Shown: piece by piece, positions 860 through 64,000 of the stretch
Layout: each line of letters begins with the position of its first letter
How positions within the stretch are numbered: the stretch's first letter is position 1
From: Candidatus Latescibacterota bacterium
GTDB taxonomy: Bacteria > Latescibacterota > UBA2968 > UBA8231
NCBI GenBank assembly: GCA_965200315.1
Contig: OZ241362.1
Span: forward strand, 1,888,001-1,952,000
Direction of reading: 5' to 3'
DNA: 64,000 nucleotides
The notes under the pieces: generated by a model
Databases searched by the model: none
Seen by the model: only the letters and a program-made list of their open reading frames with translations
What the model was told of the DNA's origin: nothing
Position numbers and translations under genes: made by a program

Positions 860-1774
860 TTATTCAGTTAAACCTAATAGGCGTTCGAGTTCGCCGATTA
901 TTGCAAGTGCAGACTGAGCCTTCTGAGAAGGGATGTCTGTTGCTTGTCGAACTCGCTGCTGCAACCGTTCCAAGGCGGTACGTGCTCGGTCATCGGTCGT
1001 GCTTTCTTGAAAAGTCTTCAAGAACTCCCTCCAATAAACCGCCTTTATACCGCACAATTGTACATCATCGAGTTTATTTTTATATGTGTCCATCATCCCC
1101 GTGCGGGCCAAGCGGCCAAAGTTGCTACCGCCATCCGAAACAGGTTTGTCGAGGATCTGATCCGACTTGCTTGGATATGGCTCCACTCCGGCAGGAATAT
1201 CGATGTCCGTAGAAAGGCGGGTTTCCCGGACTCGTTGCCAGTGGTGATTGCGATATTCCGCAGCGTATTTTGCTGATTCGACAAATGGCTCAAACAGAAT
1301 CGGAGACCCGTTGGTGATGTTTCCCAAAACCCAAGGAACCACGACAATCAAATCTTGTTCAGCACAGGCCGCGGCGGTAGTTTGAAATCTCAAACTGGGC
1401 TCGGTTTCTTTGGCCAACAAATACCAGCCTTTAAGTTCAATACCCAATAGAGTCTCGCTGTTTGATGCTTGGCGCAAAAGAACATCGGGGAATGTTTGTG
1501 CTTGGCGTACAAAACTATACAGGGCATACTTTTCGCCCGGGTCCCACGTATTCCTCATTAGGTTCAATGTGAGTACAACTTGCTCTTCAATCGTCGCTCC
1601 GAGTACGGTATTTAGAGTATGTAGATCGGTAGCCATGACGCCGGAAATATGGGTTTCTGTACGGAAGTGGAGCGGCAGACCCGAGATAGCTTCGCGGACA
1701 TCTTTGTAAAGTTGAAAATGTTCCCAGTCGTCGGGCAATTTCCTTGTTGGGGTGCCCTGACTTCTCTCACTCAT
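860..1774 (-). CDS. putative type II restriction endonuclease (PD-(D/E)XK)
   Basis: 304 aa; TFPDVLL...GIELKGW matches PD-Xn-EXK; ATGA overlap with the upstream MTase; visibly lower GC than leu genes. Confidence 0.65.
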   Translation of the reverse strand: MSERSQGTPTRKLPDDWEHFQLYKDVREAISGLPLHFRTETHISGVMATDLHTLNTVLGATIEEQVVLTLNLMRNTWDPGEKYALYSFVRQAQTFPDVLLRQASNSETLLGIELKGWYLLAKETEPSLRFQTTAAACAEQDLIVVVPWVLGNITNGSPILFEPFVESAKYAAEYRNHHWQRVRETRLSTDIDIPAGVEPYPSKSDQILDKPVSDGGSNFGRLARTGMMDTYKNKLDDVQLCGIKAVYWREFLKTFQESTTDDRARTALERLQQRVRQATDIPSQKAQSALAIIGELERLLGLTE

Positions 1775-2820
1775 GAGGCGGCCAATCTCTCCACGGCGGC
1801 ACGGTAAAATTCGGGAATTATCTCCGCAGCATAGTACTCGCGGTCAAATTGATAAGCCACTACTGCTCCTGGACATAGACCACCAAACGGTTCCCAGATA
1901 ACGTCGCCTTTATCCGTCGAAGCTCGAATGATCAAGTCTATGAACTTCAATGGCTTCTGGCTACCGTGCAAGCTGCGGAATTTATACTTCATTTTACTGC
2001 GCACTCCCCGAATCCGCTCAGAACCACTGACCTGTGGTTCGCGCCAAACATTCGTGATGCCTATGTTGCATTTGAATTTTGCCCGTAGTTTGGCCCAATG
2101 ATGACCGGGGATAGGGTCTCTACCGTCTGCACTGAAATACGGGCACCCTTTGGGGTCGCCGTGTTCGTTTGCGTACTTGACCAATTTCACGAAGGTTTCA
2201 ACTGGCGGATAGTACCAAAGATGGTCAGCAGTAAGGTACTTTCGGGTTGCGGCATTAATCACTCCACACGCTTCATTAGCCAATCGCAAAGGTAAACCCG
2301 TGCGCTTCCATTCGCGCCGAAGCCATTCCTGCATAGTCAATGACACCCCACCCACTTGGAAGCGGGCCGCCTTGACGTAATGCACACATACCTCCGTTAC
2401 CACCGGGAATTTGCGCAGCGTGTGTGTATTGGCGTTTCCAGCAATGTGCCCGAGGCCCTTGTCCCAAACATTGCAACACCGATACTCCCAGCCGTGCGCC
2501 ACGAGGATCGGATGCACCGTCGCCCAGCCCACTTCCGTATTCCAAAACCACAAGGTGGTCGCCGGGGTAGCCCGCTCACTCCACGTCTTAACGTGTGGCT
2601 CGTACCACTCAGCCAAGGAACTCTCGGTATGGCTGTCACCGGGAAAACCGCTGACTCCATACGGGCCATCGGAAATAATGCAAGTCGGCGTTGGCCAGTC
2701 GGCATAGTGGTTTTCGGCGCGGTCAAAGTGAATAGATGCCAATCCGTGCGTGTACTGCTGACCGGCGACAGGTTCTGGTTGGCCGCGTTGCTCGGTTGGG
2801 AACAAGTGAGCCTGTGTCAT
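1771..2820 (-). CDS. N4/N6 DNA methyltransferase, beta-class motif order
   Basis: 349 aa; catalytic-like IISDGPYG near N-terminus, HGSQKP and GDVIWEPFGG (SAM motif I) near C-terminus. Confidence 0.85.
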   Translation of the reverse strand: MTQAHLFPTEQRGQPEPVAGQQYTHGLASIHFDRAENHYADWPTPTCIISDGPYGVSGFPGDSHTESSLAEWYEPHVKTWSERATPATTLWFWNTEVGWATVHPILVAHGWEYRCCNVWDKGLGHIAGNANTHTLRKFPVVTEVCVHYVKAARFQVGGVSLTMQEWLRREWKRTGLPLRLANEACGVINAATRKYLTADHLWYYPPVETFVKLVKYANEHGDPKGCPYFSADGRDPIPGHHWAKLRAKFKCNIGITNVWREPQVSGSERIRGVRSKMKYKFRSLHGSQKPLKFIDLIIRASTDKGDVIWEPFGGLCPGAVVAYQFDREYYAAEIIPEFYRAAVERLAAS

Positions 2821-2832
2821 CTTGCGCTGCCC

Positions 2833-3438
2833 TTAGTGGCCAGCGGCAAAGGCTCGAGTGTAAGGCAAGCGAGCAGCGGTCTGGCCGATCTGGTCGCCGG
2901 CGTCCAAAAGCTGACCCAGCGAGTCCCAGCTCCCCTTGAGAAATTGCTCGCGCGGGCCATCGGCAATATCGGCTGCAACTTGGCGGCCGGCCCAGCTCAC
3001 CCGCCGAGCTTCGAGGTCAATGGCCACCTCCTGCGCCGGATCGCTCTCGACCGCGTCCATCAAAGTCTGCATGTCCTCGGCCGCCACCCGCACACAAGGC
3101 AATCCCATGGCGATGCAGTTGCCAAAGAAAATCTCGGCAAAGGACTCGGCGACAAATCCCTGAATCCCCCAGCGCATTAGGGCTTGGGGGGCGTGTTCGC
3201 GCGAGGACCCGCAGCCAAAATTGGCATTAGCCAACAGGATCGATGCCCCTTGGAAACGCGCTTGGTCAAAGGGATGGTCGCCAGCCGTGCGATCATCTTC
3301 AAAGGCGTGGGCACCCAGATGCTCAAAGGTCACCGTCCGCAAAAAGCGGGCCGGAATGATGCGGTCGGTATCAATATCGGCCCCGCGCACGACCACGCCG
3401 CGGCCAGTTATCGTCTGAATCACACTCGAATTTCCCAT
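2833..3438 (-). CDS. leuD: 3-isopropylmalate dehydratase small subunit
   Basis: DIDTDRIIPARFL, NFGCGSSREHAP, SFAEIFFGN; ATG 3438 preceded by GAGGAG. Confidence 0.96.
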   Translation of the reverse strand: MGNSSVIQTITGRGVVVRGADIDTDRIIPARFLRTVTFEHLGAHAFEDDRTAGDHPFDQARFQGASILLANANFGCGSSREHAPQALMRWGIQGFVAESFAEIFFGNCIAMGLPCVRVAAEDMQTLMDAVESDPAQEVAIDLEARRVSWAGRQVAADIADGPREQFLKGSWDSLGQLLDAGDQIGQTAARLPYTRAFAAGH

Positions 3439-3451
3439 GGTGTCTCCTCCT

Positions 3452-4849
3452 CTACCCCACCAATTCCCGCACATCTGCCACCTCGCCGGCCACCGCCGCC
3501 GCCGCGACCATCGCCGGACTCATCAGCAGGGTGCGGCCGGTGGGGCTGCCCTGCCGGCCCTTGAAGTTGCGGTTGGACGACGAGGCGCACAGCTCGCGGC
3601 CCTCGAGTTTGTCGGGATTCATCGCCAAGCACATGGAGCAACCCGCTCCCCGCCACTGGAACCCAGCCTCCGCAAAGATCTCGTGCAAGCCCTCGGCCTC
3701 GGCTGCGGCCCGCACCTGCTGAGACCCAGGCACCACGAGGGCGCGGACGCTGGGGGCTACCTTGTGCCCGCGAGCTACTCGGGCGGCCTCGCGCAAATCC
3801 GAGAGCCGACCGTTGGTGCAGGAGCCGATAAACGCCACATCTACTTTGGTGCCGGCGATCCTTTGCCCCGGCGCAAAGTCCATGTACTCAAAGGCTTCTC
3901 GGACAGTGGATCGCTCGGCGTCGGCAAAAGCGTCTAGGTCGGGCAGGGCTTGGTCGATACCGACTGATTGGCCTGGCGTGATGCCCCACGTCACGGTCGG
4001 GCCGATCGCACGACCGTCTATTTGGACTAAGTCGTCGTATTCGGCGTCGGCATCTGAGGCCATGGACTCCCACCACTCGACCGCCTGCTCAAAGTTGCGC
4101 GGCGCGTGAGGCCGCCCGTTGAGATAGTTGTAAGTCGTCTGATCGGGATTGACGTAGCCGACCCGGGCCCCGCCCTCAATCGACATATTGCACACCGTCA
4201 TCCGCTCTTCGATGGACATGGCCTCAATGACTGAGCCGCCGTACTCATAGCCGTAGCCAACACCGCCATTGACCCCGAGCTGGCCGATGATGTGCAAGAT
4301 GACGTCCTTGGCATACACCCCCTCGCTCAGCGCACCGCGGATCTCGATCCGCCGCACCTTGAGCGGGTCCATGGCCAAGCACTGAGTGGCGAGCACATCG
4401 CGGACTTGGCTGGTGCCAATGCCAAAGGCCACCGCGCCAAAGGCTCCGTGCGTCGAAGTGTGGCTGTCGCCGCAGGCAATGGTCATGCCTGGCTGGGTCA
4501 GCCCCAACTCTGGGCCGATGACGTGGACTACCCCTTGGCGCTGATCGTCGATGTTGAACAGCGGGATCTCGAATTCGGCGGCATTCTGCTCGATCGCGTC
4601 CATCATCTCCTCGGCCAAGTCATCGACAAAAGGCCGCTGCACCAAGTCCGTAGGCACGATGTGATCCACAGTGGCAAAGGTGCGCTTGGGGAAGCGGACC
4701 ATAAGGCCGCGCTCCCGCAGCATCTCAAAAGCCTGAGGGCTGGTCACCTCGTGGACCAGATGCAGGCCAACGAACAACTGCGTCTGCCCAGAGGGCAACT
4801 CGCGCACGGTGTGCGCATCCCAAACCTTGTGCAACAGGGTCTTGCCCAT
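3452..4849 (-). CDS. leuC: 3-isopropylmalate dehydratase large subunit
   Basis: [50 protein letters not shown]. Confidence 0.97.
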
Positions 4850-55066: not shown

Positions 55067-56863
55067 TTACCTCTCGCCTTGGGCCATAGCCTCATTACCG
55101 ACCGGCTCCAGCCGGATAAAGGTCTTCAACAATTCCCACTGCCAAGAGTGCGGGAAGCCGTAGGGGTCTTGCTGGCTCGGCCAGCCGGTCCAGCGGGTGG
55201 TGTTGCAAGGATAGCGGATGATGAGCTGCGCCAAGAAGATGTCGGGCAACTCCCCCACCCAGATTTCCATGGCCTCCGCGAACAGCGCCAACAGTTCCTC
55301 GTCGCCGACCTGTAGAGGCGCGATGCGCTCGACAATGCGGTCGAACTCCTCGTTGCGCCAGCGCGAGGTGGTTGACCACAGCGGCGCCGGCTGGCCGGTG
55401 GGCCGGAAGTACTGAGAGGTGTAGTAAGACAGCATCAGATAAGGGTCCATGCCGCGCACCCCGCTAGGTCCCTTACAGCCGAGGGAAGCCTTCTGCTCTC
55501 CGGTCTGCACAAGCGAGGTCAGGCCGGGCGAGGTGTCGAAGTTCGCATCAAAACCAGCGTCGCGCAGTTGTTGGGTTAGCGGCGGACCGTAGGCCCGCAG
55601 CCACTGCGGCACGTACATGGCAATCTCGACGCGCTCGCCCTCTGAGTTGATCCACAAGCCCTCGTCGTCCTTGCGATAGCCTTTCCCCTCCATGATCCGA
55701 TCCACTTCTTCCAAGTGCGGCTTGGTGTCGTACCCGTGCCGGGCGAGAATCTCCTGCAGGGCCTCGTCAAAAGGCGCGAACCATTCGTAGGGCGTGAAGG
55801 GATGCAACGCGACCACGCCCGCGCCCGACTCGGCTAACTGGACGAGTTTCTCCCGGTCGATGGCCATGCTGATCGCCCGGCGAATCTGCGGATCGTCAAA
55901 CGGCGGCTCCGAGCAGTTCATGTTGAGGTCAATGGGGCACCAGTCCAAGTAGCCGTAGGGCGGCTCCCGCTCAGAAAAGGTCACGACCTGCGCATTGCGC
56001 TCTAACACGCTTTCGAGGGTGAGCACCTGCATGATGGGGGCCATGTCGAGCTGATCGGTCAGCAGCAGTTGCGCGGCTTGGCTTTCCTCTTGCTGCGGCA
56101 CGTAGATGATGCGCTCAATTCTCGGCAGGCGCTTGAACCCGGTCTTGGCCGCCCACCATTCCCGCCGCAGATCGTAGATTTTCTGGTAAGGCGAAGCGTA
56201 CACGAGGCGGTAGGGACCTGTGCCCAAGGGCAAGCCGCCGTCGATATCGTGGAACGTGAACTCTAGCGGGTCTTGGTCTTTCCAGATGTGCTCAGGCAAG
56301 ACGAAGATGCCGTGGTTGCTGCTCAGGGTGGTCGCCCAAAACGCGGGCCCCGCCTTTTTCAGCACCAGCCGCACTGTGCGGTCATCGACGACCTCGACGG
56401 AATCGAAGAACTCGGGCAGGTCGGCCAGATGCACCATGGACTCGGCGTGCTCACGCAGCAGGCCAAAGGTGAAGGCCACGTCGCGCGCGGTGAAGGGCAC
56501 GCCGTCGGCCCATTCAATGCCCGCACGCAGCTTCACGGTGAGCACAGTGAAGCTATCGTTGTACTCCCAGCTTTCGGCCAGCCAGTTCTCGTATTCCCCG
56601 GTGAGCACGTTGTACATAATCAGCGGCTCAAATACCGCCGGCAGCGTACCCATGTGGAACCCCTGATCCGAGCCGGGGATGTAGGGGTTCTGATTGTCGA
56701 ACAGGGCGTACTGGTTCGGCCCGCCGTTCATCAAGATCAGGGTGCGATCCCGGGGAACATCGTCTAGCACCACAGCCGGCCCGCAGCTAGCCAGCACCGC
56801 ACATGCCGCAAGCAGGAGTAGAGGCACCCCTTGTATGTTGAAGTTATTGTTTTTCAAAGGCAT
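55067..56863 (-). CDS. ABC transporter substrate-binding lipoprotein, family 5
   Basis: Lipobox LASC; LAESWE, LRAGIEWADGVPFTARDVAFT, GTGPY, PFDDPQIRRAI. Confidence 0.9.
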   Translation of the reverse strand: MPLKNNNFNIQGVPLLLLAACAVLASCGPAVVLDDVPRDRTLILMNGGPNQYALFDNQNPYIPGSDQGFHMGTLPAVFEPLIMYNVLTGEYENWLAESWEYNDSFTVLTVKLRAGIEWADGVPFTARDVAFTFGLLREHAESMVHLADLPEFFDSVEVVDDRTVRLVLKKAGPAFWATTLSSNHGIFVLPEHIWKDQDPLEFTFHDIDGGLPLGTGPYRLVYASPYQKIYDLRREWWAAKTGFKRLPRIERIIYVPQQEESQAAQLLLTDQLDMAPIMQVLTLESVLERNAQVVTFSEREPPYGYLDWCPIDLNMNCSEPPFDDPQIRRAISMAIDREKLVQLAESGAGVVALHPFTPYEWFAPFDEALQEILARHGYDTKPHLEEVDRIMEGKGYRKDDEGLWINSEGERVEIAMYVPQWLRAYGPPLTQQLRDAGFDANFDTSPGLTSLVQTGEQKASLGCKGPSGVRGMDPYLMLSYYTSQYFRPTGQPAPLWSTTSRWRNEEFDRIVERIAPLQVGDEELLALFAEAMEIWVGELPDIFLAQLIIRYPCNTTRWTGWPSQQDPYGFPHSWQWELLKTFIRLEPVGNEAMAQGER

Positions 56864-57385: not shown

Positions 57386-58288
57386 ATGGCTGAGTTGGAT
57401 ACGGTTTCCAAGCACCTGATTCAAACCTACCCCGCCGACTTCGTCCGTTTCACCATCCAGCGCGACGATATCGAAGTCGTCGAAGTGCTCGATACCGAGC
57501 AACCCACCGTCGAAACCCGCCGCACCGATAGCCTGATCCGCGTGCGTATCGGGGGCAAAGACGCCCTAGTCCACCACGAATTTCAAACCACCGATAGCAC
57601 CCGCCCCCCAATGCCCCGCCGCATGGCCGGCTACATCGGCCGCTGTATCGAGCGCTACGGACTGCCGGTGTACGCCTATGTCTTCTACCTGCGCCCCGCC
57701 GCCGGACGACGCGATCCGGGCTGCTACCTCCAAGCGCTTTGCGGCCACCAAATCTTCGTTCAATACAAGGTAATCCGCCTCAGCCAACAGGCCGGTCAGG
57801 CCGTGCTCGACCGGAAGCTTGCGGGCTTGTTGCCGTTGGCACCGTTGATGCAACCGCCGGCCGGACAGACCCCCAAGGCGTGGTTGGATCAATGTGTGGC
57901 CACGGCGGCGGCCGTGCCATTAGAACGGTCGATTAAGGCCAACTTTCTCGCTGGGTTAGCGATCTTGAGCGGATTAGTGTATAATCCTCAGACGATCACG
58001 GCCATTGTTTCCAAGGAGCATCTCATGGACCTCATCCACGAATCCTCGTTTGCCCAGTACCTCACCAAAAGTGCCCGTGAGCAAGGCATTGAGCAAGGCA
58101 TTGAGCAATGCCGCCGACTCAGTATCCAAGAAGTGTTGGCGTTGCGCTTTGGCCCCGGCGCGGCCCAATCCTTCGCCGCCGGCTTGGAGGCCATTGGCGA
58201 TGTACAGCGGCTCAAGCAGTTGCATCGGGCGGCTATACAGGTGTCCAGTCTCGAAGCCTTTAGGCACTTGGTAGAAGCCGACGAGTAA
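57386..58288 (+). CDS. Rpn/YhgA-like recombination-promoting nuclease (PD-(D/E)XK)
   Basis: RRTDSLI...VHHEFQT, MPRRMAGY, VFYLRP, GLLPLAPLM, C-terminal EQGIEQG repeats and LRFG. Confidence 0.85.
   Translation: MAELDTVSKHLIQTYPADFVRFTIQRDDIEVVEVLDTEQPTVETRRTDSLIRVRIGGKDALVHHEFQTTDSTRPPMPRRMAGYIGRCIERYGLPVYAYVFYLRPAAGRRDPGCYLQALCGHQIFVQYKVIRLSQQAGQAVLDRKLAGLLPLAPLMQPPAGQTPKAWLDQCVATAAAVPLERSIKANFLAGLAILSGLVYNPQTITAIVSKEHLMDLIHESSFAQYLTKSAREQGIEQGIEQCRRLSIQEVLALRFGPGAAQSFAAGLEAIGDVQRLKQLHRAAIQVSSLEAFRHLVEADE
58025..58288 (+). CDS. intragenic in-frame RpnS-like small protein (87 aa)
   Basis: AAGGAG-N6-ATG inside the rpn gene; TATAAT at 57980. Confidence 0.65.
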   Translation: MDLIHESSFAQYLTKSAREQGIEQGIEQCRRLSIQEVLALRFGPGAAQSFAAGLEAIGDVQRLKQLHRAAIQVSSLEAFRHLVEADE

Positions 58289-58323
58289 GGACGATCATGA
58301 TCATCTCTTCCAAGGAGCAGCTC

Positions 58324-58638
58324 ATGGACCTCATCCGCGAATCCCCGTTTGCCCGGCACCTCGCCGAATCCCTCCTCGCCAAAAGTGCCCGTGAGCAAGG
58401 TTTTGAGCAAGGTTTTGCGCAAGGTTTTGAGCAAGGTTTTGCGCAAGGTTTTGCGCAAGGCCGCCGACACTGTATCCAAGAAGTGTTGGCGTTGCGCTTT
58501 GACCCCGGCGCGGCCCAATCCTTCGCCGCCGGCTTGGAGGCCATTGGCGATGTGCAGCGGCTCAAGCAGTTGCATCGGGCGGCCATACAGGTGTCCAGTC
58601 TCGAAGCCTTTAGGCACTTGGTAGAAGCCGACGAGTAA
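58324..58638 (+). CDS. stand-alone duplicated RpnS-like protein (104 aa)
   Basis: Own AAGGAG-N6-ATG; 3' half nearly identical to the rpn C-terminus; 12-bp EQGF/AQGF repeats expanded. Confidence 0.75.
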   Translation: MDLIRESPFARHLAESLLAKSAREQGFEQGFAQGFEQGFAQGFAQGRRHCIQEVLALRFDPGAAQSFAAGLEAIGDVQRLKQLHRAAIQVSSLEAFRHLVEADE

Positions 58639-58962
58639 GGACACCGCAAAGACGTCCATCAGACTCCTTCCTGTCGCTCGGATGGATTGAGTACTCCAGC
58701 TAGGTCAATTAAAGGCGCATCGCGTCGTCTCATCGAGATGGCCGATCTGCGCCTCGGACGCGCCTGCGTGGTCGAGACGGTTTTGGACGATGGAGATGCG
58801 GCGAATCGCTATATCGTCACGCGGGGCTTGCGGCATCGTTCACCCACCTCCGTAGGACAGGTCGGCGGCTGCACCGCGCCGGCAATGGATCTTTCACCTC
58901 AGCGGCGTTTTGCGTCCGATGCTTCCATCTCACCGCCCACCGCTCGCTGAGAGCCTAACGCA

Positions 58963-61900
58963 TTAAACCTCGTCGCCTTTGGTCAGGCTTGGGAGCTCGC
59001 CGCGGGCCAGTTGGTCGTAGGCGCAGAGGACGTAGCGTTGGGTGCGGTATTCGCCAAATTCCTGCATCTCGTTGCGTTTGAGGGCTGGGAAGGACGCGCT
59101 CGGCGCGGGTGCGTCTAAAATCCATTCGAGGTCGGCGCGGTCTAGCTGGTATAGGTGCGCGAAAATGGCGTCTAGTTCGCACTTGAGGGCGTGGCGGCGG
59201 TCGTCGTCGTAGGAAAAGGGCGGGCCGTCGTAGCCAAGGTCGCGGGCGAAGCCTTCGAGGTCGGCGGCGGTGTACGTTAGCTCCAAGACGCGGGGGACGA
59301 TGAGTTCGACGTATCTGAGGCCGGGGAGCACTTCGTCGAGATAGGCTTCCGGCGGCAGGACGGGGAGTTGCTTGACGATGAAGAAGCTAAGATCTGTACC
59401 GCCAATCGCGGAGCGAGCCGCGAAGTCCAGCACAAGTGAATTGAGAGTTGAGACGAACAGGGCCGCAGCCTCAGCATCTTCGATATGGAGAAGTGGTGCC
59501 CGATCGCTCATGCCTGACCTCGGGACGAACGAAGCGATGCCGGTCCTCTCATTAGTGGCATTGGTGGTTTTTCGGAAGGGGATGATCCAACGTCCAGAGT
59601 AATGACGGCTCCTTTGTGACCAAGACCCGTCTTTGGAATAAGAGACGCTATCACTGTTCTCTGGTTGGTTGCTGTCGTGATCAGTCTCAAAGCCAACTTC
59701 CATTCTTGAGTCGGACGACCGTTCCCTTGCCCAATCCACTTCGCGGCACGATGGTGCTGATCGTCGTCCGTATGTCGGTCGATCTGGCGATGACTCGTAT
59801 CGCGATGTAGTACCGCGACCGATCCGATCCGATCCGATCCGATCCGATCCGATCCGATCCGATCCGATCCGATCCGATCCGATCCGATCCGATCCGATCC
59901 GATCCGATCCGATCCGATCCGTCAAAAATGGGGCTGTTTCGGTTTTGTCAAGTCTTTTTTTCACTTCTTCTTCCGGCACCCAATACCTCGGCAAAGGCAC
60001 TTGCTGCGCGTCCTCCTTTTCCGCCGCGGTCATGGGCCGGGCCTTGCCGCCTTGGCGGTCTTTTTCCGAAGCCCCCTCGAATGTGGCGAAGCGGTGATCG
60101 TACTGGTGAAACAGCTTGGCCTCGTAGAGCGGCAAGCAGGCTTCAACAGGCTCGGTGCTCGCTGCGTGCTCCCCTCCGCCCTCCTGCTGTCTTGTCGCGG
60201 GACGCACAAACACATTGCCCACAAGCTGCCAGCCCGCTTCTTCCAACTGCTCGCGGGTGCGAAAGAGGCCAGAGTCACTTGTCATATTGAACATTTGCAT
60301 GAACGTGACGCCCCAAGGGTTCTCCTCCGGCTCTGCACCTTTCGCTTCCTTCCACAACACACCGGCGCGGTCGTACATCTTGCGGGCAATTTCCATGTCG
60401 CGGCGGGTGCGGAAGATGGGGCAGGTGCGGGTGTTGGGATTGAACAGGGCGAAATCCTCGGCTGACAGGGCGAACCGCCGCGCCGAATCGCGCAGTTGCT
60501 CGGCCTGGTACAGAAAGAAGGCGAACTCGGCCTGTGGACAGGGGCGGTCCGCGCCGGTCAGGGTGAGCAGGCAGAATTTGATGCGGCTGTCTATGCTCGG
60601 AAACACCTTTTCCCGGTTCTCAAAGTCGTAGAGGCTGACGAGCCTTTTCTTCGTAACAATTTCGTCGAAAAACGCTTTGGTCGAATTATCCGTGGCAATG
60701 CCGGAAGGTACGATCAGGCCGGCGTGTCCCTCTGGCGATAGGAGTCGGAGAAACGTTTCTGCAAACAAAGCATAGCTGTTCAATTTGCCGTACGCTGTCA
60801 ATGGATGTCGTCCGCCACTACGACAAAATGCGTCCCTTGCATCGTATATGCGACTATCCAACTGGTACTGCTTCCAAAGTGGAGGATTGTGTTCCGCGAG
60901 TTGGGAGATGGCTCTCTTCCGTTCCGCACCCGACAAATCGGCAATGCTGGGTGCGCGTACTGCAAAGTACTCTTTTTCCGCGAGTTGAGACACCTCCCAC
61001 GGCGGATTCCCCAACACCACGTCAAACCCCCCGTCCTGCATGACCTCGGCAAAGGCGAGATGCCAGTGAAAAAAGCAGTGCTCGCGGGCTAGCTTGCCAA
61101 CCGCCTCGCCGACGCCGGGCCGCATGACCAAGCCGGCTTTGAGGCGATTGAAATCCTCGATGAGCGGCACCGCGTCGGTGCTGCCCCGCGTCTTTTTTGC
61201 AAAATACGCCCCGACAAACAAATTCGCCCGCAGTTCCTCTCTTGTGCGCTCTTCCTGTACACGCATGGCCTCATACGCGGTGCGCTTGCGCTCTACATCC
61301 TCAATCGTCTCCTCGGGCATGTCGCCGAAGTCGAGGGTCGCTACCGCCACTTCGAGCAAACTATCTTCGTCGAACAAGTTGCCCTGTACCTCATCTCCCG
61401 CTTGGCGGTTGCGCTTTTTGAGCTCGGTACAAACAGCCTTGTCATCGCCGGTCAAGGGCTTGTACGCAGCGGCCGGAATGCCGTTTGCCATGATCTCCGG
61501 GTCGAGGACGCCCACGAGGCTGTCACCGTGCAGAATGTGCGCGTCGAGAAAGCTCAGCGGCTTGCCCGGCTCCACGGTTTCGATCCACAGGGCGGTCTTG
61601 CACAGCTCAACCGCCAGCGGATTGCGGTCCACGCCGTAGATGCAGTTTTGCACCACTTCCCGCAGCGCATGCTGACGCACGGTTTCGTCGGAAGTAGGCC
61701 CACTCGAGCCGAGGCTTACTATTTCGGCCGCCATGCGCCGCGCCGCGGCCAACAGGAAATGCCCCGAGCCGCACGCCGGATCGATGACTCGCAAGGCGAG
61801 GATCGCTTCTCTCGGATCTTCAGGATGATCGGCGACAGCTTGAGCTAAGACAGGCTCCAGCGTCGATTTGATCAGCTCATTTACCAGAGTCTCGGGCGTG

Positions 61901-63306
61901 TAGTACGAGCCCGTTAGCTTGCGCTCGGAGCCTCTGCTCTTTTCGCTGCTGAGGCCATCGCCAACAAAGCCAAAAGCACAAGGCGCAGCACTCATGTCCA
62001 CCACAGGCTGAAGCTCCAAGAGGCTTTCGTACACCGAGCCGAGCTCTTCGGTGCCCATGTCTCGATAGTTGACGCGGGCGAGAGCCTCGTCAGTGCGGAA
62101 GGACGCTAAGTTTCGCACCGCCTCCAAAAGCCGCTCATTGGCAATGAAGGCCTCTTCCAAAGCCGGGCACTGATCTCGGCGGAACAGGCCCCCTAAAGCC
62201 GGCAATCCCAGCGCAGGCTCCCCTCGGGCGAGCGCACCGAAGATAATCCGCAGGCCCACATAGAGATCATGGTGGTGGTCGTAATGGCGTCGGCGCAAAG
62301 CGCGTTCGCGCAACCGAGAAAGGGAATACCCCTCGGTAAACAGGTCGCGCTGTTTTTTGGTGGCCCCCGGGGTGTGCAGCAGGTCGCGCTCTTCGGCCGT
62401 AAAGAGAAAGAGCAGGCGATAAATGAACCGGAGAAGCTGCTGGAAATAGCCCTCGGGCGAGAGCGTACCCTCGCTGAGGGCGGCGCACAAAGCAGCGTTG
62501 TTCGGGTGCTGGAGGAAACCATTGCCGATCTGCCGCAGGGCTTTGGTGACGCCAGTGCGGAGGTTATCTAAGGCGCGTTCACCGGTCTGATGCGCTTGCG
62601 TGCGCCAGCTTTCGATGATGCAACTAGACGGCTGGCCATTGGTTGGCTGCAACCGGCTGGCATGAGCGGTGAGCCAAAGGGCCGCAAAATCCGCATAGAG
62701 CCCCTCCGCGAACATGCGGTCCAAGTCGGCCTCAATGCAGGCGGGCCGCGTCAGGCTGGAGTTGTCGCGGAGCAGGCGCAGCTTTGCACCGTTGGAAATG
62801 ATCCCCCACAAAGAAGCGTCCTCGGCGTTGAGGTACTCTTGCATCAATCCGTGCGGTGCTTGCTGGCGTCCCTCGTGCCCAAACCGCGGATCGGCCTTGT
62901 CGAGTTCAAAGCCGTGCGTGGTCAACAAAAGGGGCACTGACTCGCTACAAGCGCGGTGGGTTAGAGCAAACCGGCGATCTCCGAGCGCGACGCTCGCAGA
63001 CGCGGTCAAATCGCCGTAGCCGAGGATGTCGCGCAACAAAGGCACAAGCCATTCGCCCACGCCGACGTGGTCTGCGCTGAGTTCGCGGCGCGGACAGCGC
63101 TCGGAATAACTCGCGTACAGATCGTTGGCAATGCGCCAATAGCGGGCCAGTTCCTCTTTGAGCGCGAGGGACTTAGAGAGGCCGTAGGCCATGCCGGTCT
63201 GTTTGGGAGCGTCCAATGCGGCGATGGTCTGGAGAAACTCAGGATGCAAAATGCCGCCTTTGATCCTGATAGCAATGAATCCGTGATCTTTTCGCGTTCG
63301 TGCCAT
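58963..63306 (-). CDS. type IIG/DrmMI-like REase-N6 methyltransferase with phase-variable TRD
   Basis: LGSVYESLL, GSYYTP, IDPACGSGHF, GNPPW, FNPNTRTCPIFR, PLYEAKLFHQYDHR, PRYWV; contains the (GGATC)20 tract. Confidence 0.9.
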   Translation of the reverse strand: MARTRKDHGFIAIRIKGGILHPEFLQTIAALDAPKQTGMAYGLSKSLALKEELARYWRIANDLYASYSERCPRRELSADHVGVGEWLVPLLRDILGYGDLTASASVALGDRRFALTHRACSESVPLLLTTHGFELDKADPRFGHEGRQQAPHGLMQEYLNAEDASLWGIISNGAKLRLLRDNSSLTRPACIEADLDRMFAEGLYADFAALWLTAHASRLQPTNGQPSSCIIESWRTQAHQTGERALDNLRTGVTKALRQIGNGFLQHPNNAALCAALSEGTLSPEGYFQQLLRFIYRLLFLFTAEERDLLHTPGATKKQRDLFTEGYSLSRLRERALRRRHYDHHHDLYVGLRIIFGALARGEPALGLPALGGLFRRDQCPALEEAFIANERLLEAVRNLASFRTDEALARVNYRDMGTEELGSVYESLLELQPVVDMSAAPCAFGFVGDGLSSEKSRGSERKLTGSYYTPETLVNELIKSTLEPVLAQAVADHPEDPREAILALRVIDPACGSGHFLLAAARRMAAEIVSLGSSGPTSDETVRQHALREVVQNCIYGVDRNPLAVELCKTALWIETVEPGKPLSFLDAHILHGDSLVGVLDPEIMANGIPAAAYKPLTGDDKAVCTELKKRNRQAGDEVQGNLFDEDSLLEVAVATLDFGDMPEETIEDVERKRTAYEAMRVQEERTREELRANLFVGAYFAKKTRGSTDAVPLIEDFNRLKAGLVMRPGVGEAVGKLAREHCFFHWHLAFAEVMQDGGFDVVLGNPPWEVSQLAEKEYFAVRAPSIADLSGAERKRAISQLAEHNPPLWKQYQLDSRIYDARDAFCRSGGRHPLTAYGKLNSYALFAETFLRLLSPEGHAGLIVPSGIATDNSTKAFFDEIVTKKRLVSLYDFENREKVFPSIDSRIKFCLLTLTGADRPCPQAEFAFFLYQAEQLRDSARRFALSAEDFALFNPNTRTCPIFRTRRDMEIARKMYDRAGVLWKEAKGAEPEENPWGVTFMQMFNMTSDSGLFRTREQLEEAGWQLVGNVFVRPATRQQEGGGEHAASTEPVEACLPLYEAKLFHQYDHRFATFEGASEKDRQGGKARPMTAAEKEDAQQVPLPRYWVPEEEVKKRLDKTETAPFLTDRIGSDRIGSDRIGSDRIGSDRIGSDRIGSDRIGRGTTSRYESSPDRPTYGRRSAPSCREVDWARERSSDSRMEVGFETDHDSNQPENSDSVSYSKDGSWSQRSRHYSGRWIIPFRKTTNATNERTGIASFVPRSGMSDRAPLLHIEDAEAAALFVSTLNSLVLDFAARSAIGGTDLSFFIVKQLPVLPPEAYLDEVLPGLRYVELIVPRVLELTYTAADLEGFARDLGYDGPPFSYDDDRRHALKCELDAIFAHLYQLDRADLEWILDAPAPSASFPALKRNEMQEFGEYRTQRYVLCAYDQLARGELPSLTKGDEV
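59488..59812 (-). other. three tandem homologous TRD cassettes in three different frames
   Basis: C1 (59812) YYIAIRVIARSTDIRTTISTIVPRSGLGKGTVV; C2 (59702) WKLALRLITTATNQRTVIASLIPKTGLGHKGAVI; C3 (59589) WIIPFRKTTNATNERTGIASFVPRSGMSDRAPLL. Confidence 0.85.
59821..59920 (-). repeat. pentanucleotide microsatellite (GGATC)20
   Basis: 20 perfect GATCC units on the + strand; encodes (GSDRI)n with no stop in any frame. Confidence 0.98.
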
Positions 63307-63376: not shown

Positions 63377-64000
63377 TCACAAACTCGCCATGGGCATAAA
63401 AACATAGACCCCGATCTTGTCAACAGGCAGCACCGGAATCACGTCGTATCGCAGGCCCTTAGCATCGCTGGCCTCGCGGATGCGCCGATGGTCCGCCAAC
63501 AACTCCCGCGCCCGCTCGTGTGCGAGGCGATCAAACGTGTCTTCTAGGGCGGGGACCGCATCGCGGGCTTGCCTAATGAGGTGAGTTTTCTGGGCGTCTT
63601 CCATGTTGCGGCCCGGATCTGAGGACAGTAGCGACAGCGCCTTTTCCTCGGTCAATAGTTCAGGGTCGTTGCCCCCGCGAACCGCGACCCCAAGACACTC
63701 CTCGGTTAGGAGCGACTTCAGAGGCGCGTACCGGCCGTTGGCACCGCGCTGCTCCACTCGAAGCTGACTGCGCAGACGCAGCAGGTAGAGCACGGTGCGT
63801 GTGCTGATTTCTCGGGCGAACATGGCACTTGCCCGGGCACCGAGATCGGGTTGCCCGGCGTCGAGGGCCTGTTCAGCCACGTAATCAGCGAGTGCCGCAA
63901 CCAGCCGATGGGCCCGGTGGATATAGTCCGCCCCGGTTGGCGCAGGTTGGGCAAAGGCAAGTCTTGCAGCCGCTTTGAAGCCCATGGCATCGAGGCGGTC
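63377..64000 (-). CDS. C-terminal part of a probable SNF2/DrmD-like helicase (5' end outside window)
   Basis: HRAHRLV...RARELLADHRRIREAS...PVDKIGVYVFMP ending, typical of helicases preceding such MTases; motor motifs not visible. Confidence 0.6.
   Translation of the reverse strand, partial: DRLDAMGFKAAARLAFAQPAPTGADYIHRAHRLVAALADYVAEQALDAGQPDLGARASAMFAREISTRTVLYLLRLRSQLRVEQRGANGRYAPLKSLLTEECLGVAVRGGNDPELLTEEKALSLLSSDPGRNMEDAQKTHLIRQARDAVPALEDTFDRLAHERARELLADHRRIREASDAKGLRYDVIPVLPVDKIGVYVFMPMASL

What the first reader, a model, noticed from the sequence alone, without database searches (positions are those of the whole stretch)
59488..59925. Three-state, frame-selected specificity switch: microsatellite plus three TRD cassettes in three reading frames
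Seen: in the TRD region of a type IIG/DrmMI-like gene, (GGATC)20 is followed by three homologous cassettes that align without gaps (invariant R6, T12, R15, T16, I18, P23, G26). They are spaced 110 and 113 nt apart, so each lies in a different frame. The repeat has no stop in any frame. The cassette-2 frame stays open across cassette 1, and the cassette-3 frame stays open across both (77 codons of polar linker). Hence repeat number n mod 3 = 1, 0 or 2 selects cassette 1, 2 or 3; the current n=20 selects cassette 3. The cassettes differ at RVIARSTD/RLITTATN/RKTTNATN and GLGKG/GLGHK/GMSDR. Established: SSR slippage gives ON/OFF or spacer-length variation in mod/hsdS/type IIG genes, while multi-specificity switching normally uses invertases or recombination. 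Inference: the variable residues contact DNA, and slippage alone cycles among three recognition specificities through overlapping-frame coding. I do not know of this mechanism being described.
Basis: partly seen in the sequence, partly recalled or inferred. Interest (0 to 1): 0.97.

Follow-up and report, generated by a model that had tools for sequence, protein, structure and literature searches.

The report
Repeat-driven three-frame switch in methylase
A slippery five-base repeat inside a phage-defence DNA methylase gene sets which of three reading frames is read, and each frame carries its own copy of the same small protein module, a layout shared by related genes in bacteria of many phyla that looks like a built-in three-state switch.

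Summary
(GGATC)20 lies at window 59821-59920 (minus strand) inside a 1447-aa DrmMI-like adenine methyltransferase gene. Only n≡2 (mod 3) gives the full-length protein.

The layout is not an accident. In 74 of 79 related loci, from MAGs of many phyla, a non-triplet, stop-free repeat sits at the same hinge; unit lengths are 1, 2, 4, 5, 7, 8, 10 and 11, never a multiple of 3. Out-of-frame cassette copies follow it, and each shows the codon-position signature of purifying selection in its own frame. Assemblies are spread over all three phases (22/16/22).

In the commoner 35-locus layout (not the window's), 57 of 70 alternative-frame stops are TGA, and 54 of those 57 overlap an ATG or GTG of the next frame. 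That suggests re-initiation on a constant C-terminal module. A complex model supports binding of the two fragments.

Best reading: a three-state isoform switch (fused, split, truncated) of a DISARM-like methylase. Three DNA specificities remain possible but unsupported. My literature searches found no description of it.

The parts
58963..63306 (-). DrmMI-like N6-adenine DNA methyltransferase gene, 1447 aa in the present phase (n=20)
   Evidence: ORF list and translation. Pfam Eco57I 1e-21, N6_Mtase, MmeI_Mtase. PADLOC DrmMI 8e-72. NPPW motif in the translation.
59977..59991 (-). Family-wide anchor motif PRYWV, the last conserved element before the hinge that holds the repeat
   Evidence: The anchor is present in 78 of 80 related loci plus the window. 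In single-cassette relatives it lies 16-30 aa before the cassette.
59821..59920 (-). (GGATC)20 microsatellite, stop-free in all three frames; encodes (DRIGS)n-type peptide in the present phase
   Evidence: TRF; exact count. It is the only long non-homopolymer, non-triplet SSR among 10 SSRs found in the 5.36-Mb genome.
59687..59812 (-). Cassette 1 (frame +2 relative to the gene frame) with its TGA stop at 59687-59689; read when n mod 3 = 1, giving a 1204-aa product
   Evidence: Own genome versus G005: substitutions by codon position 9/2/13 in this frame. Eight loci of this layout: nucleotide entropy 0.83/0.51/1.18.
59508..59702 (-). Cassette 2 (frame +1) plus a 27-codon tail and a TGA stop at 59508-59510; read when n mod 3 = 0, giving a 1267-aa product
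   Evidence: Own genome versus G005: 5 synonymous / 2 non-synonymous codon changes in this frame, against 0/8 in the gene frame. Entropy 0.64/0.48/1.22.
59590..59818 (-). About 76 codons of polar linker in the gene frame: cassettes 1 and 2 read out of frame. Predicted disordered.
   Evidence: AF2 pLDDT is 22-33 over this stretch, in a poor model.
59467..59589 (-). Cassette 3 (gene frame), the only one joined in frame to the C-terminal module; keeps the family's Glu (TNERT)
   Evidence: Entropy 0.78/0.42/1.27.
59509..59511 (-). In-frame ATG (Met of GMSDR) overlapping the cassette-2-frame stop as ATGA, with GAGG 6 nt upstream: candidate re-initiation codon for a separate C-terminal fragment
   Evidence: In 8 loci of this layout, 6 have TGA here, overlapping ATG (5) or GTG (1). 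The function is inferred.
58966..59508 (-). Constant C-terminal module (APLL strand, LNS helix region, helical C-terminus); no Pfam family
   Evidence: Alignments A1 and A3. No Pfam hit on the equivalent module of 27 relatives. High-confidence fold in a canonical relative.
63377..64000 (-). 3' part of the upstream SNF2 helicase gene (953 aa, runs beyond the window); a 1760-aa DEAD-helicase+MZB/DUF1998 gene lies further upstream
   Evidence: The same gene order is found in G012 and G009.

Best explanation
The gene encodes the adenine methyltransferase of a three-gene DISARM-like defence operon: a helicase-DUF1998 fusion, an SNF2 helicase and a DrmMI-like methylase. A hypermutable, non-triplet, stop-free microsatellite sits in a flexible hinge of the methylase's target-recognition-like C-terminal half. 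Slipped-strand changes of one repeat unit move translation among three frames, and all three have been kept meaningful. In the present phase (n mod 3 = 2) the ribosome reads through a disordered linker into cassette 3 and the constant C-terminal module, giving the fused 1447-aa enzyme. In the other two phases it reads a spare, frame-specific copy of the same conserved beta-strand cassette (cassette 2 or cassette 1) and then stops. The result is an N-terminal fragment that carries its own cassette. In the cassette-2 phase the stop overlaps an in-frame ATG (ATGA) at the start of the constant module. Ribosomes probably re-initiate there and make that module as a separate polypeptide that re-associates, giving a split enzyme. 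The locus is therefore a heritable, reversible three-state isoform switch (fused, split, truncated-capped) that changes the activity or coupling of the methylase rather than simply turning it on and off. Shown: the repeat, the frames and the stops; selection on each frame; conservation of the design across many taxa; the different phases among genomes. Inferred: slippage within populations, re-initiation, re-association and any functional difference between the states.
For: Anatomy.

Operon: 1760-aa DEAD helicase + MZB/DUF1998, 953-aa SNF2 and the methylase, conserved in G012 and G009.

Same-genus orthologues carry different repeats at the same spot and are assembled in different phases. G005 has (GACAG)27 in the cassette-1 phase. 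G012 has (GACAA)20 and is full-length. G009 has (GACAG)14 in an alternative-cassette phase. G004 has (CACG)5 in the third phase.

Wider set: I examined 79 loci with the anchor, namely 78 of the 80 fetched plus the window.
- 74 have a robust SSR 20-130 nt after the anchor.
- Unit lengths are 1 (14 loci), 2 (1), 4 (18), 5 (26), 7 (5), 8 (6), 10 (2) and 11 (2); none is a multiple of 3.
- 74 of 74 are stop-free in all frames, against 76-87% expected for random units.
- Of the 64 loci with enough downstream sequence, 35 have one cassette in frame +1 followed by two in the C-terminal frame, and 9 have the window's 3-frame layout.
- Phases are 22 full-length, 16 frame +1 and 22 frame +2, among the 60 loci with the C-terminal motif.

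Selection: nucleotide entropy at codon positions 1/2/3 of each cassette's own frame is A 0.97/0.52/1.37, B 1.10/0.63/1.47, C 0.87/0.56/1.65, c1 0.83/0.51/1.18, c2 0.64/0.48/1.22 and c3 0.78/0.42/1.27. The frames that must stay open have 0 stops in 35 loci (0 in 8 for the window's layout). Own genome versus G005 agrees.

Protein database: of the top 120 homologues, 33 are full-length, 41 end after a cassette and 46 end without one.

Relay:
- In the 35 loci of the common layout, the frame+1 stop is TGA in 29, and 27 of these sit at one conserved codon. The overlapped codon is GTG (16), ATG (11) or TTG (2).
- The frame+2 stop is TGA in 28, overlapping ATG (17), GTG (10) or CTG (1).
- In 8 loci of the window's layout, the cassette-2 frame ends in TGA in 6, overlapping ATG (5) or GTG (1).

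Split form: the complex prediction used a natural N-fragment ending in its alternative cassette and the C-fragment from the overlapping ATG. It scored 0.88 against a best control of 0.00. That mark was reached by 58 of 80 solved complexes and 2 of 110 mismatched pairs. The runs agree in at least 71% of contacts, and the partner's pLDDT is at least 74. The alternative cassette (residues 419-443) is in the confident interface.

Canonical relatives have one cassette 16-30 aa after the anchor and no SSR. There the cassette forms four beta-strands next to the C-terminal helices (model pLDDT 89.8).

Precedents in print:
[quoted passage not shown] DrmMI-like genes are also targets of programmed variation (PMC9881135, passages).
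- Loss of drmMI causes no autoimmunity in a class 1 DISARM (bioRxiv 10.1101/2021.12.28.474362, passages).
Against: - It is inferred from differences between species.
- Re-initiation is inferred only from codon statistics. V/M at the overlapped codon could reflect protein constraints.
- In the window's layout the cassette-1 stop overlaps TTG (4) or CTG (2) in 8 loci, not ATG/GTG, so the relay is weaker for that phase.
- In the window's layout the re-initiated fragment would lack a cassette core.
- The complex model rests on a different locus (L026, the other layout). Halves of one protein tend to pass such a test, and residues not named in the interface are uncertain rather than excluded.
- The near-equal spread over phases (22/16/22) would also fit a plain ON/OFF switch whose state is neutral at sampling.
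- The three phases have no demonstrated phenotypic difference.
- AF2 on the window's own protein gave a poor model (pLDDT 49).
Confidence: 0.6

Rival explanations
1. One reading: each phase installs a different cassette whose variable residues contact DNA, so slippage cycles the methylase (and the defence system) among three recognition specificities.
For: The cassettes lie in the half of the protein that superposes on the target-recognition halves of M.BseCI, CamA, M.TaqI and BrxX/PglX (Foldseek E 1e-10 to 1e-8, TMq 0.34-0.45). All three frames are under selection. The cassette classes differ systematically, also at a normally conserved Glu. It is kept in A (28/35), C (30/35) and c3 (7/8). 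It is replaced in B (E in 2/35), c2 (0/8) and c1 (0/8). If re-initiation works, each phase would pair one cassette with the same C-terminal module. DrmMI-like and PglX genes are known targets of programmed variation of a middle region with a constant C-terminus (PMC9881135, passages).
Against: The c1 and c2 frames end in stops and are not joined to the C-terminal module. The cassette is the most conserved motif of the family, including single-cassette relatives that presumably differ in specificity. Each cassette class is conserved across phyla instead of diversifying. The commoner layout has only one alternative cassette plus a cassette-less third phase. No DNA contact could be modelled and no methylation data were available.
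Confidence: 0.15
2. An ordinary ON/OFF phase-variable methylase: only the full-length phase is active. The alternative-frame cassettes merely cap or stabilise inactive truncated products so that they are harmless, or are slowly decaying duplicates.
For: SSR ON/OFF switching of mod, hsdS and type IIG genes is well established (PMC5909438, PMC7383803 and PMC4889913; search listings and abstract starts only). Two thirds of assemblies are in truncated phases, as random switching would give. A class 1 DISARM tolerates loss of drmMI.
Against: Codon-position signatures show purifying selection on the out-of-frame cassettes across 35 + 8 loci from many phyla. The alternative frame stays open for about 40 codons past its cassette. 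It then stops at one conserved codon in 27 of 35 loci, and within 21 nt of it in 31 of 35. The overlapped codon is ATG or GTG in 54 of 57 TGA cases. A simple OFF state does not need any of this.
Confidence: 0.2
3. An artefact: mis-assembled alleles or collapsed repeats produce apparent cassettes in different frames.
For: Fifteen of 79 related contigs end less than 1100 nt after the anchor, 9 of them within 6 nt of the repeat's end. These repeats do disturb assembly.
Against: The same ordered layout, spacing (107/110/113 nt) and stops recur in more than 40 independent assemblies, many of them single-contig genomes. The cassettes are only 41-48% identical in DNA, so they cannot be collapsed alleles.
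Confidence: 0.01

Closest known systems
SSR-driven phase variation of DNA methyltransferase genes: type III mod, type I hsdS/hsdM, and type IIG cj0031 of Campylobacter jejuni (PMC5909438, PMC7383803, PMC4889913; search listings and abstract starts seen)
   Same: A hypermutable non-triplet repeat inside the coding sequence of an N6-adenine methylase shifts the frame, and related strains sit in different phases.
   Different: Those switches are described as ON/OFF (or spacer-length changes in hsdS). Here both 'off' frames encode conserved homologous copies of a protein module under selection. The stops sit at conserved positions overlapping start codons, and the repeat lies late in the gene, in a hinge of the recognition half.
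Programmed inversions in DrmMI-like, Cj0031-like and BREX PglX genes, including the split PglX of Brevibacterium casei (PMC9881135; passages read; its supplementary figures were not seen)
   Same: The gene class is the same: DISARM-like loci in which a single CDS encodes helicase + DUF1998. The logic is also the same, namely to vary a part of the methylase while keeping the C-terminus constant. In one case this is done by ending the first protein at the variable part and making the C-terminus separately.
   Different: There the mechanism is site-specific recombination between inverted repeats with a recombinase. Here it is microsatellite slippage plus overlapping-frame coding, with no recombinase and no inverted copies.
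C-terminal phase variation in Helicobacter canadensis (PMC2823697; passages read)
   Same: A repeat late in an ORF changes the C-terminal sequence instead of abolishing the protein.
   Different: There homopolymer tracts alter a few terminal residues and no conserved alternative-frame module is described. Here about 40-aa homologous cassettes are maintained in the alternative frames of a 1447-aa protein, across phyla.
Phase variation of pglX by a G tract in the Streptomyces coelicolor Pgl (BREX type 2) system, and truncation of HsdS by a poly-G tract in NgoAV, which changes specificity (both recalled, from no call)
   Same: The methylase or specificity subunit of a defence system is switched by slippage. 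In NgoAV a truncated product is functional, with altered specificity.
   Different: To my recollection neither has homologous alternative-frame modules or stop-start relays.
Class 1 DISARM of Serratia sp. SCBI (bioRxiv 10.1101/2021.12.28.474362; passages read)
   Same: It has an SNF2 helicase, a DrmMI-type m6A methylase and a helicase with DUF1998. Loss of the methylase is tolerated.
   Different: No PLD (DrmC) gene was seen here. Helicase and DUF1998 are fused, and the best PADLOC hits of the partners are DruE and DpdE models. No phase variation is mentioned in the passages I read.

Membership tests
SSR-mediated phase-variable DNA methyltransferase | Non-triplet simple sequence repeat inside the coding sequence | tested here: met
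   (GGATC)20 at 59821-59920. In relatives, 74 of 79 loci have a robust SSR and none has a unit length that is a multiple of 3.
SSR-mediated phase-variable DNA methyltransferase | Tract length and reading phase vary among close relatives | tested here: met
   Same-genus orthologues have 27, 20, 14 and 5 units of different repeats and sit in three different phases. Across loci the phases are 22/16/22.
SSR-mediated phase-variable DNA methyltransferase | Tract length varies within one population (reads) | not testable with these tools
SSR-mediated phase-variable DNA methyltransferase | Methyltransferase catalytic motifs present | tested here: met
   Pfam Eco57I 1e-21, N6_Mtase 6e-10 and MmeI_Mtase; the NPPW motif is in the translation.
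Class 1 DISARM | DrmMI-type adenine methylase | tested here: met
   PADLOC DrmMI PDLC02643, E 8e-72.
Class 1 DISARM | SNF2 helicase DrmD | tested here: inconclusive
   The 953-aa SNF2 protein hits DrmD at 4.8e-86, but its best hit is DpdE at 5.7e-210.
Class 1 DISARM | DrmA helicase and DrmB (DUF1998) | tested here: inconclusive
   A single 1760-aa protein carries DEAD, Helicase_C and MZB/DUF1998 domains. Its PADLOC best hit is DruE (1.9e-95) and DrmA scores only 3e-12. PMC9881135 lists such fused loci as 'similar to Class 1 DISARM'.
Class 1 DISARM | DrmC (PLD nuclease) | tested here: not met
   No PLD family appeared among the ORFs flanking the three genes that were scanned: ABC-transporter genes on one side, two ORFs without hits and a substrate-binding protein on the other. 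Only ORFs of at least 150-180 aa near the operon were scanned.
Type IIG restriction-modification enzyme (fused nuclease-methylase) | Endonuclease domain in the same polypeptide | tested here: not met
   Pfam finds only methylase families, in residues 461-778. The N-terminal ~450 aa has no hit. PADLOC type IIG models match only the methylase and C-terminal parts. A divergent nuclease cannot be excluded.
Gamma-class N6-adenine methyltransferase with C-terminal target-recognition domain (TaqI/CamA/BseCI/PglX type) | Fold of the region after NPPW resembles the recognition half of solved members | tested here: met
   This was tested on a canonical relative (L164), not on the window's protein. The AF2 model has pLDDT 89.8. 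Foldseek top hits are 7qw6 M.BseCI (E 1.2e-10), CamA, M.TaqI and BrxX/PglX, with TMq 0.34-0.45. There is no sequence-level PDB relative.
Multi-specificity switch of a methylase (alternative recognition modules) | Alternative homologous modules, each joined to the constant parts of the enzyme | tested here: not met
   Cassettes 1 and 2 are followed by stops and are not joined in frame to the C-terminal module. They could be joined functionally only through a split protein, which is inferred.
Multi-specificity switch of a methylase (alternative recognition modules) | The states methylate different DNA motifs | not testable with these tools
   No methylome data were available and no DNA chain could be modelled.

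The most novel reading that the evidence does not exclude
The microsatellite and the conserved RTGA stop-start overlaps form a frame-relay device. In every phase the N-terminal enzyme body and the constant C-terminal module are both made. The repeat number decides which of the frame-specific cassettes (Glu-type or non-Glu-type) docks between them. Slippage alone then cycles a DISARM-like methylase, and with it the defence system, among three heritable functional states with different DNA specificity or activity. The device has spread by horizontal transfer through bacteria of at least ten phyla.
Probability: 0.2. Interest if true: 0.95.

Novelty: new variant of a known kind. Interest (0 to 1): 0.86.

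Why it matters
Phase variation by microsatellites is normally a two-state, gain-or-loss device studied mostly in host-adapted pathogens. Here all three reading frames behind the repeat are kept informative. Homologous protein modules are encoded out of frame with each other, each under selection, and stops sit on start codons of the next frame. If the states differ in function, this is a compact way to encode a three-state, heritable, reversible switch in about 450 bp, with no recombinase. It would be an example of overlapping-frame coding used for regulation in cellular genomes. It also shows that a DISARM-like defence methylase is phase-variable in uncultured environmental bacteria of many phyla, sometimes with two or three such genes per genome. 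That matters for reading MAG annotations: two thirds of these genes look 'broken'. It also matters for understanding how defence and self-methylation are balanced. Finally, the design offers a template for synthetic stochastic switches.

Tried and rejected
- AF2 of the window's own residues 740-1447 with a 19-row alignment gave a poor model (mean pLDDT 49). I did not use it for fold search.
- Sequence searches against the PDB found nothing, either with the protein or with profile A1.
- Pfam on the C-terminal module of 27 relatives gave no credible family at E up to 10.
- I looked for near-identical locus pairs with different repeat numbers, as a stand-in for population data. Only 10 pairs have more than 90% identical upstream flanks and none is close enough. 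They show only that unit and copy number change fast: 13 vs 14, 50 vs 19, 54 vs 33, and AGGC vs AGCC.
- I considered programmed ribosomal or transcriptional slippage on the repeat instead of DNA slippage. I set it aside because assemblies of related genomes are fixed in different DNA phases. It is not excluded as an extra layer.
- I considered a Shine-Dalgarno test upstream of the overlapped start codons. I dropped it because the purine-rich sequence there is confounded by a conserved Gly codon and the taxa differ in SD use.
- NCBIfam BREX PglX models match only far below their cut-offs, so the gene is not a PglX.
- Literature searches turned up no description of alternative-frame cassettes behind a repeat in a methylase. 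The passages of PMC3711429 containing the terms methylase/methyltransferase/restriction/pentanucleotide mention no such methylase case. The library lacks most subscription journals, and supplements were not seen.
Full report
**1. What is in the window**

The finding lies in the 3' quarter of a 1447-aa ORF on the minus strand, 58963..63306.
- Tandem Repeats Finder reports a perfect period-5 array of 20.6 copies at 59819-59921. On the gene strand this is exactly (GGATC)20 at 59821-59920.
- Three-frame translation of the gene strand shows three similar peptides immediately behind the repeat, one in each frame: c1 (59812..59690, frame +2), c2 (59702..59580, frame +1) and c3 (59589..59467, the gene frame).
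- Their starts are 110 and 113 nt apart. They align without gaps and share R6, T12, R15, T16, I18, P23 and G26. The c2 frame is open across c1 and the gene frame is open across both, with about 76 linker codons.

The c2 frame ends in TGA at 59508-59510, 27 codons after. The n=19 and n=21 products are therefore 1204 and 1267 aa and lack the C-terminal ~190 residues.

**2. The cassettes are old and were selected as proteins**

Pairwise, the cassettes share only 50-59 of 123 nucleotides. Matches are concentrated at codon position 2 (24-29 of 41) and are near random at position 3 (8-14 of 41). They are therefore not recent duplicates or collapsed alleles.

**3. What the gene is**

- Pfam finds Eco57I, N6_Mtase and MmeI_Mtase methylase domains in residues 461-778 and nothing else.
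- PADLOC's best model is DrmMI (8e-72), followed by type IIG models that match only the methylase and C-terminal parts. No nuclease domain was detected.
- Upstream on the same strand lie a 953-aa SNF2 helicase and a 1760-aa DEAD helicase with an MZB/DUF1998 domain. Their best PADLOC hits are DpdE/DrmD and DruE/DrmA.
- The three genes sit between genes of a peptide ABC transporter. No PLD gene was seen.
- Loci of this kind, with a single CDS encoding helicase and DUF1998, are listed as 'similar to Class 1 DISARM' in PMC9881135 (passages).

I therefore call the system DISARM-like, not a proven class 1 DISARM.

**4. The canonical form of the protein**

The same genome holds a 1331-aa paralogue with one cassette and no repeat.

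Metagenome relatives that are 45-54% identical in the C-terminal module have a continuous ORF. Their anchor PRYWV lies 16-30 aa before a single cassette, and there is no repeat. Some carry a 100-150-aa insert at the same spot. The repeat therefore sits in a hinge that tolerates insertions.

In a 60-sequence alignment of both kinds, the cassette is the most conserved element of this half. R and T are invariant, and W, I, T-N-E-R-T and P are at least 90% conserved.

An AF2 model of a canonical relative is confident (pLDDT 89.8, pTM 0.86). The cassette forms four short beta-strands directly before the helices of the C-terminal module.

Foldseek places this half next to M.BseCI, CamA, M.TaqI and BrxX/PglX, with E 1e-10 to 1e-8 and TMq 0.34-0.45. 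These are gamma-class adenine methylases whose C-terminal half recognises DNA. The cassette itself, however, is a conserved scaffold element, not a variable one.

**5. Relatives in the same genus**

Of 31 genomes of the genus, 7 including the window's have a close match at E <= 1e-50.

| Genome | Repeat | Layout | Assembled phase |
|---|---|---|---|
| Window | (GGATC)20 | three frames (c1, c2, c3) | full-length |
| G005 | (GACAG)27 | same three-frame layout | cassette 1 |
| G012 | (GACAA)20 | one cassette (A) in frame +1, two (B, C) in the C-terminal frame | full-length |
| G009 | (GACAG)14 | as G012 | cassette A |
| G004 | (CACG)5 | as G012 | third phase, which has no cassette |

G013 and G043 hold remnants.

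Between the window and G005, substitutions fall mainly at codon positions 3 and 1 of each cassette's own frame:
- c1: 9/2/13 by position.
- c2: 3/0/5, with 5 synonymous and 2 non-synonymous codon changes in its own frame, against 0 and 8 in the gene frame.
- c3: 2/1/5.

The counts are small but all point the same way.

The operon is conserved in G012 and G009, and is degraded in G005.

**6. The wider family**

A search of 5.8 billion proteins with residues 800-1130 found 6589 proteins at E <= 1e-20 among the 8000 candidates scored. Among the best 120 (59-81% identical):
- 77 carry a periodic peptide right after the anchor, with period 5 in 52.
- 33 are full-length, 41 end after a cassette and 46 end without one. 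Some of the short ones may be cut by contig ends.

From one-genome-per-species contigs I fetched 80 loci. All are MAGs, titled Latescibacterota, Rhodothermales, Gemmatimonadota, Alpha- and Gammaproteobacteria, Caldilineaceae, Dehalococcoidia, Acidimicrobiia, Binatia, Bryobacterales, Thermoanaerobaculia, Thermodesulfobacteriota and others. Two of them lack the anchor.

Of the 79 loci examined (78 plus the window):
- 74 have a robust repeat starting 20-130 nt (median 72) after the anchor.
- Unit lengths are 1 (14), 2 (1), 4 (18), 5 (26), 7 (5), 8 (6), 10 (2) and 11 (2); none is a multiple of three.
- All 74 are free of stops in all three frames, where random units would be so in 76-87% of cases.
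- Fifteen contigs end less than 1100 nt after the anchor, 9 of them within 6 nt of the repeat's end.

Of the remaining 64 loci:
- 35 have the A / B+C layout.
- 9 have the window's three-frame layout.
- 7 show one alternative plus one in-frame cassette by my pattern.
- 13 are other or unresolved.

Among the 60 with the C-terminal motif, 22 are assembled in the full-length phase, 16 in frame +1 and 22 in frame +2.

In the window's own genome this is the only long non-homopolymer, non-triplet repeat.

**7. Selection on every frame**

I aligned cassettes by their core motif across the 35 loci of the common layout and 8 loci of the window's layout. One of the nine was dropped for atypical spacing.

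Mean nucleotide entropy at codon positions 1/2/3 of each cassette's own frame:

| Cassette | Position 1 | Position 2 | Position 3 |
|---|---|---|---|
| A | 0.97 | 0.52 | 1.37 |
| B | 1.10 | 0.63 | 1.47 |
| C | 0.87 | 0.56 | 1.65 |
| c1 | 0.83 | 0.51 | 1.18 |
| c2 | 0.64 | 0.48 | 1.22 |
| c3 | 0.78 | 0.42 | 1.27 |

Amino-acid entropy is lowest in the cassette's own frame in all six cases.

The frames that must remain open to reach a later cassette have no stop in 35 of 35 loci (8 of 8 for the window's layout). The frames that should end do so in 35 of 35 (8 of 8).

The sequences are related, so this is not a formal test. Still, the phase of the three-base periodicity identifies the translated frame. 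For A, c1 and c2 that frame is not the frame of the full-length protein.

**8. Where the alternative frames stop**

In the 35 loci of the common layout:
- The frame+1 (cassette A) stop is TGA in 29. In 27 of these it sits at one conserved codon, 63 or 66 nt after the core Arg of cassette B.
- The codon of the full-length frame that overlaps this TGA is GTG (16), ATG (11) or TTG (2), never CTG. It begins a conserved (M/V)S(N/D)(K/R)APLL strand.
- In 4 further loci the stop lies 5-7 codons upstream of that codon.
- The frame+2 stop is TGA in 28, and 25 of the 35 stops fall at one codon inside cassette A. The overlapped codon is ATG (17), GTG (10) or CTG (1).

Altogether 54 of 57 TGA stops overlap an ATG or GTG of the frame one step closer to the full-length frame.

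At the equivalent positions of cassettes that carry no overlapping stop, the printed sequences show other hydrophobic residues (L, I, A, F) as well. I did not tally these.

In the window's layout, the c2-frame stop is TGA in 6 of 8 loci, overlapping ATG (5) or GTG (1). In the window it is ATGA at 59508-59511, with GAGG 6 nt upstream. The c1-frame stop overlaps TTG (4) or CTG (2).

I read this as a -1 relay by termination-reinitiation, which lets ribosomes reach the constant C-terminal module from the other phases. This is inference from codon statistics. It is weaker for the cassette-1 phase.

**9. Would the pieces fit together?**

I submitted a natural pair from locus L026, which is assembled in the cassette-A phase. 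Chain 1 was the last 482 aa of the truncated ORF, ending with cassette A and its tail. Chain 2 was the 227-aa fragment starting at the overlapping ATG. Each chain had its own alignment.

The model supports binding but does not show it:
- Score 0.88 (runs 0.88, 0.89, 0.85), best of three controls 0.00.
- That mark was reached by 58 of 80 solved complexes and 2 of 110 mismatched pairs. These counts hold only roughly, because my own alignments were used.
- The runs agree in at least 71% of contacts, and the partner's pLDDT is at least 74.

The confident interface includes cassette A (residues 419-443) and the strand after it (452-457). It also includes the conserved NPNT...FR..RD and HQYDHR regions of chain 1, and residues 53-98 and 117-189 of chain 2. 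Residues 1-52 of chain 2, which hold its own cassette C, are not named. That means they are uncertain, not that they are absent from the interface.

Halves of one protein tend to pass such a test. No related complex is known by sequence.

**10. Two classes of cassette**

The Glu of the family motif TNERT is kept in A (28 of 35), C (30 of 35) and c3 (7 of 8). It is replaced in B (E in 2 of 35; Q in 21, R in 7), in c2 (0 of 8; Q in 5, R in 3) and in c1 (0 of 8). In the window, the full-length phase therefore uses a Glu-type cassette and the two other phases use non-Glu types. What the Glu does is unknown.

**11. Interpretation**

The best-supported reading is a three-state isoform switch.
- The repeat is a slippage-prone frame selector in a hinge.
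- The full-length phase gives a fused enzyme with a long disordered tether.
- The other phases give an N-terminal enzyme body that ends in its own copy of the cassette.
- At least for the frame+1 phase, the C-terminal module is probably made separately.

A plain ON/OFF switch does not explain the selection on the out-of-frame cassettes or the conserved stop-on-start geometry.

The site is in the recognition half, the classes differ, and PMC9881135 describes programmed variation of DrmMI-like and PglX genes with a constant C-terminus, including a split PglX (passages). But the cassette is the family's most conserved motif. Each class is conserved across phyla. The commoner layout has only two cassette-bearing phases. 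No in-frame junction exists.

That the truncated phases are common is compatible with the report that a class 1 DISARM shows no autoimmunity without its methylases (bioRxiv 10.1101/2021.12.28.474362, passages).

**12. Novelty and limits**

SSR switching of methylase genes and C-terminal phase variation are known (PMC5909438, PMC7383803 and PMC4889913 from listings; PMC2823697 from passages). So is programmed variation of DrmMI-like genes by inversion (PMC9881135).

None of my searches found homologous modules kept in alternative frames behind a repeat, or stop-start relays linked to phase variation. The library is incomplete and supplements were closed.

Not done:
- A deeper representative search; the tool was not accepting jobs.
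- Any DNA-bound model.

The window's own protein gave a poor AF2 model. The structural statements therefore rest on a canonical relative (L164) and on locus L026.

Noticed in passing
window 58078-58108 and 58392-58460: Two 12-nt tandem arrays (TGAGCAAGGCAT x2.6 and TGAGCAAGGTTT x5.8) lie in the ~2-kb stretch between the methylase stop and the ABC substrate-binding gene. The two ORFs there (57386..58288 +, 57988..58659 -) have no Pfam, NCBIfam or PADLOC hit.
   Followed up: no
window 55067-56863 (-) and L022 8789-12724 (genome beyond the window end): The three defence genes sit between genes of one peptide/nickel-type ABC transporter: the substrate-binding protein on one side, two ATPases and a permease on the other. 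This looks like an island inserted into that operon.
   Followed up: partly
own genome G000:C1:3971147-3975124 (-): A 1331-aa paralogue has one cassette, no repeat and a different N-terminus (40-44% identical in the shared parts). It shows the ancestral single-cassette arrangement within the same genome.
   Followed up: partly
L056, L063, L073; L088, L093, L094; L034, L052: Several MAGs carry two or three separate copies of the repeat-bearing methylase gene on one contig, each with a different repeat unit. One cell may hold several independent switches.
   Followed up: no
L185 (G009) 935-3786; L183 (G005); L011 (G013); L018 (G043): Signs of decay in relatives. The SNF2 gene of G009 matches in two frames, a possible frameshift near residue 738. 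G005 keeps only the first 369 aa of the helicase next to its methylase. G013 has an internal deletion that fuses the N-terminal ~80 aa to the C-terminal module. G043 has only a C-terminal piece with a stop.
   Followed up: partly
L119, L120, L125, L127, L129, L133, L142, L151, L157, L161, L171, L172, L177: Single-cassette relatives from metagenomes carry a 100-150-aa, apparently helical insert between the PRYWV anchor and the cassette. This is exactly where the repeat sits in the window's family, so the hinge accepts other insertions too.
   Followed up: no
own genome G000:C1:592992, 1055676, 5334603: Homopolymer tracts of 13-14 G or C are the only other long repeats in the genome. They could be further phase-variable sites; their gene context was not examined.
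   Followed up: no
L023-L102 record titles: The closest relatives (56-73% identical protein segment) are spread over MAGs of more than ten phyla, which implies horizontal spread of the whole device. Several isolate labels resemble those of marine sponge or coral metagenome studies; that is my recollection and was not checked beyond one search listing.
   Followed up: partly
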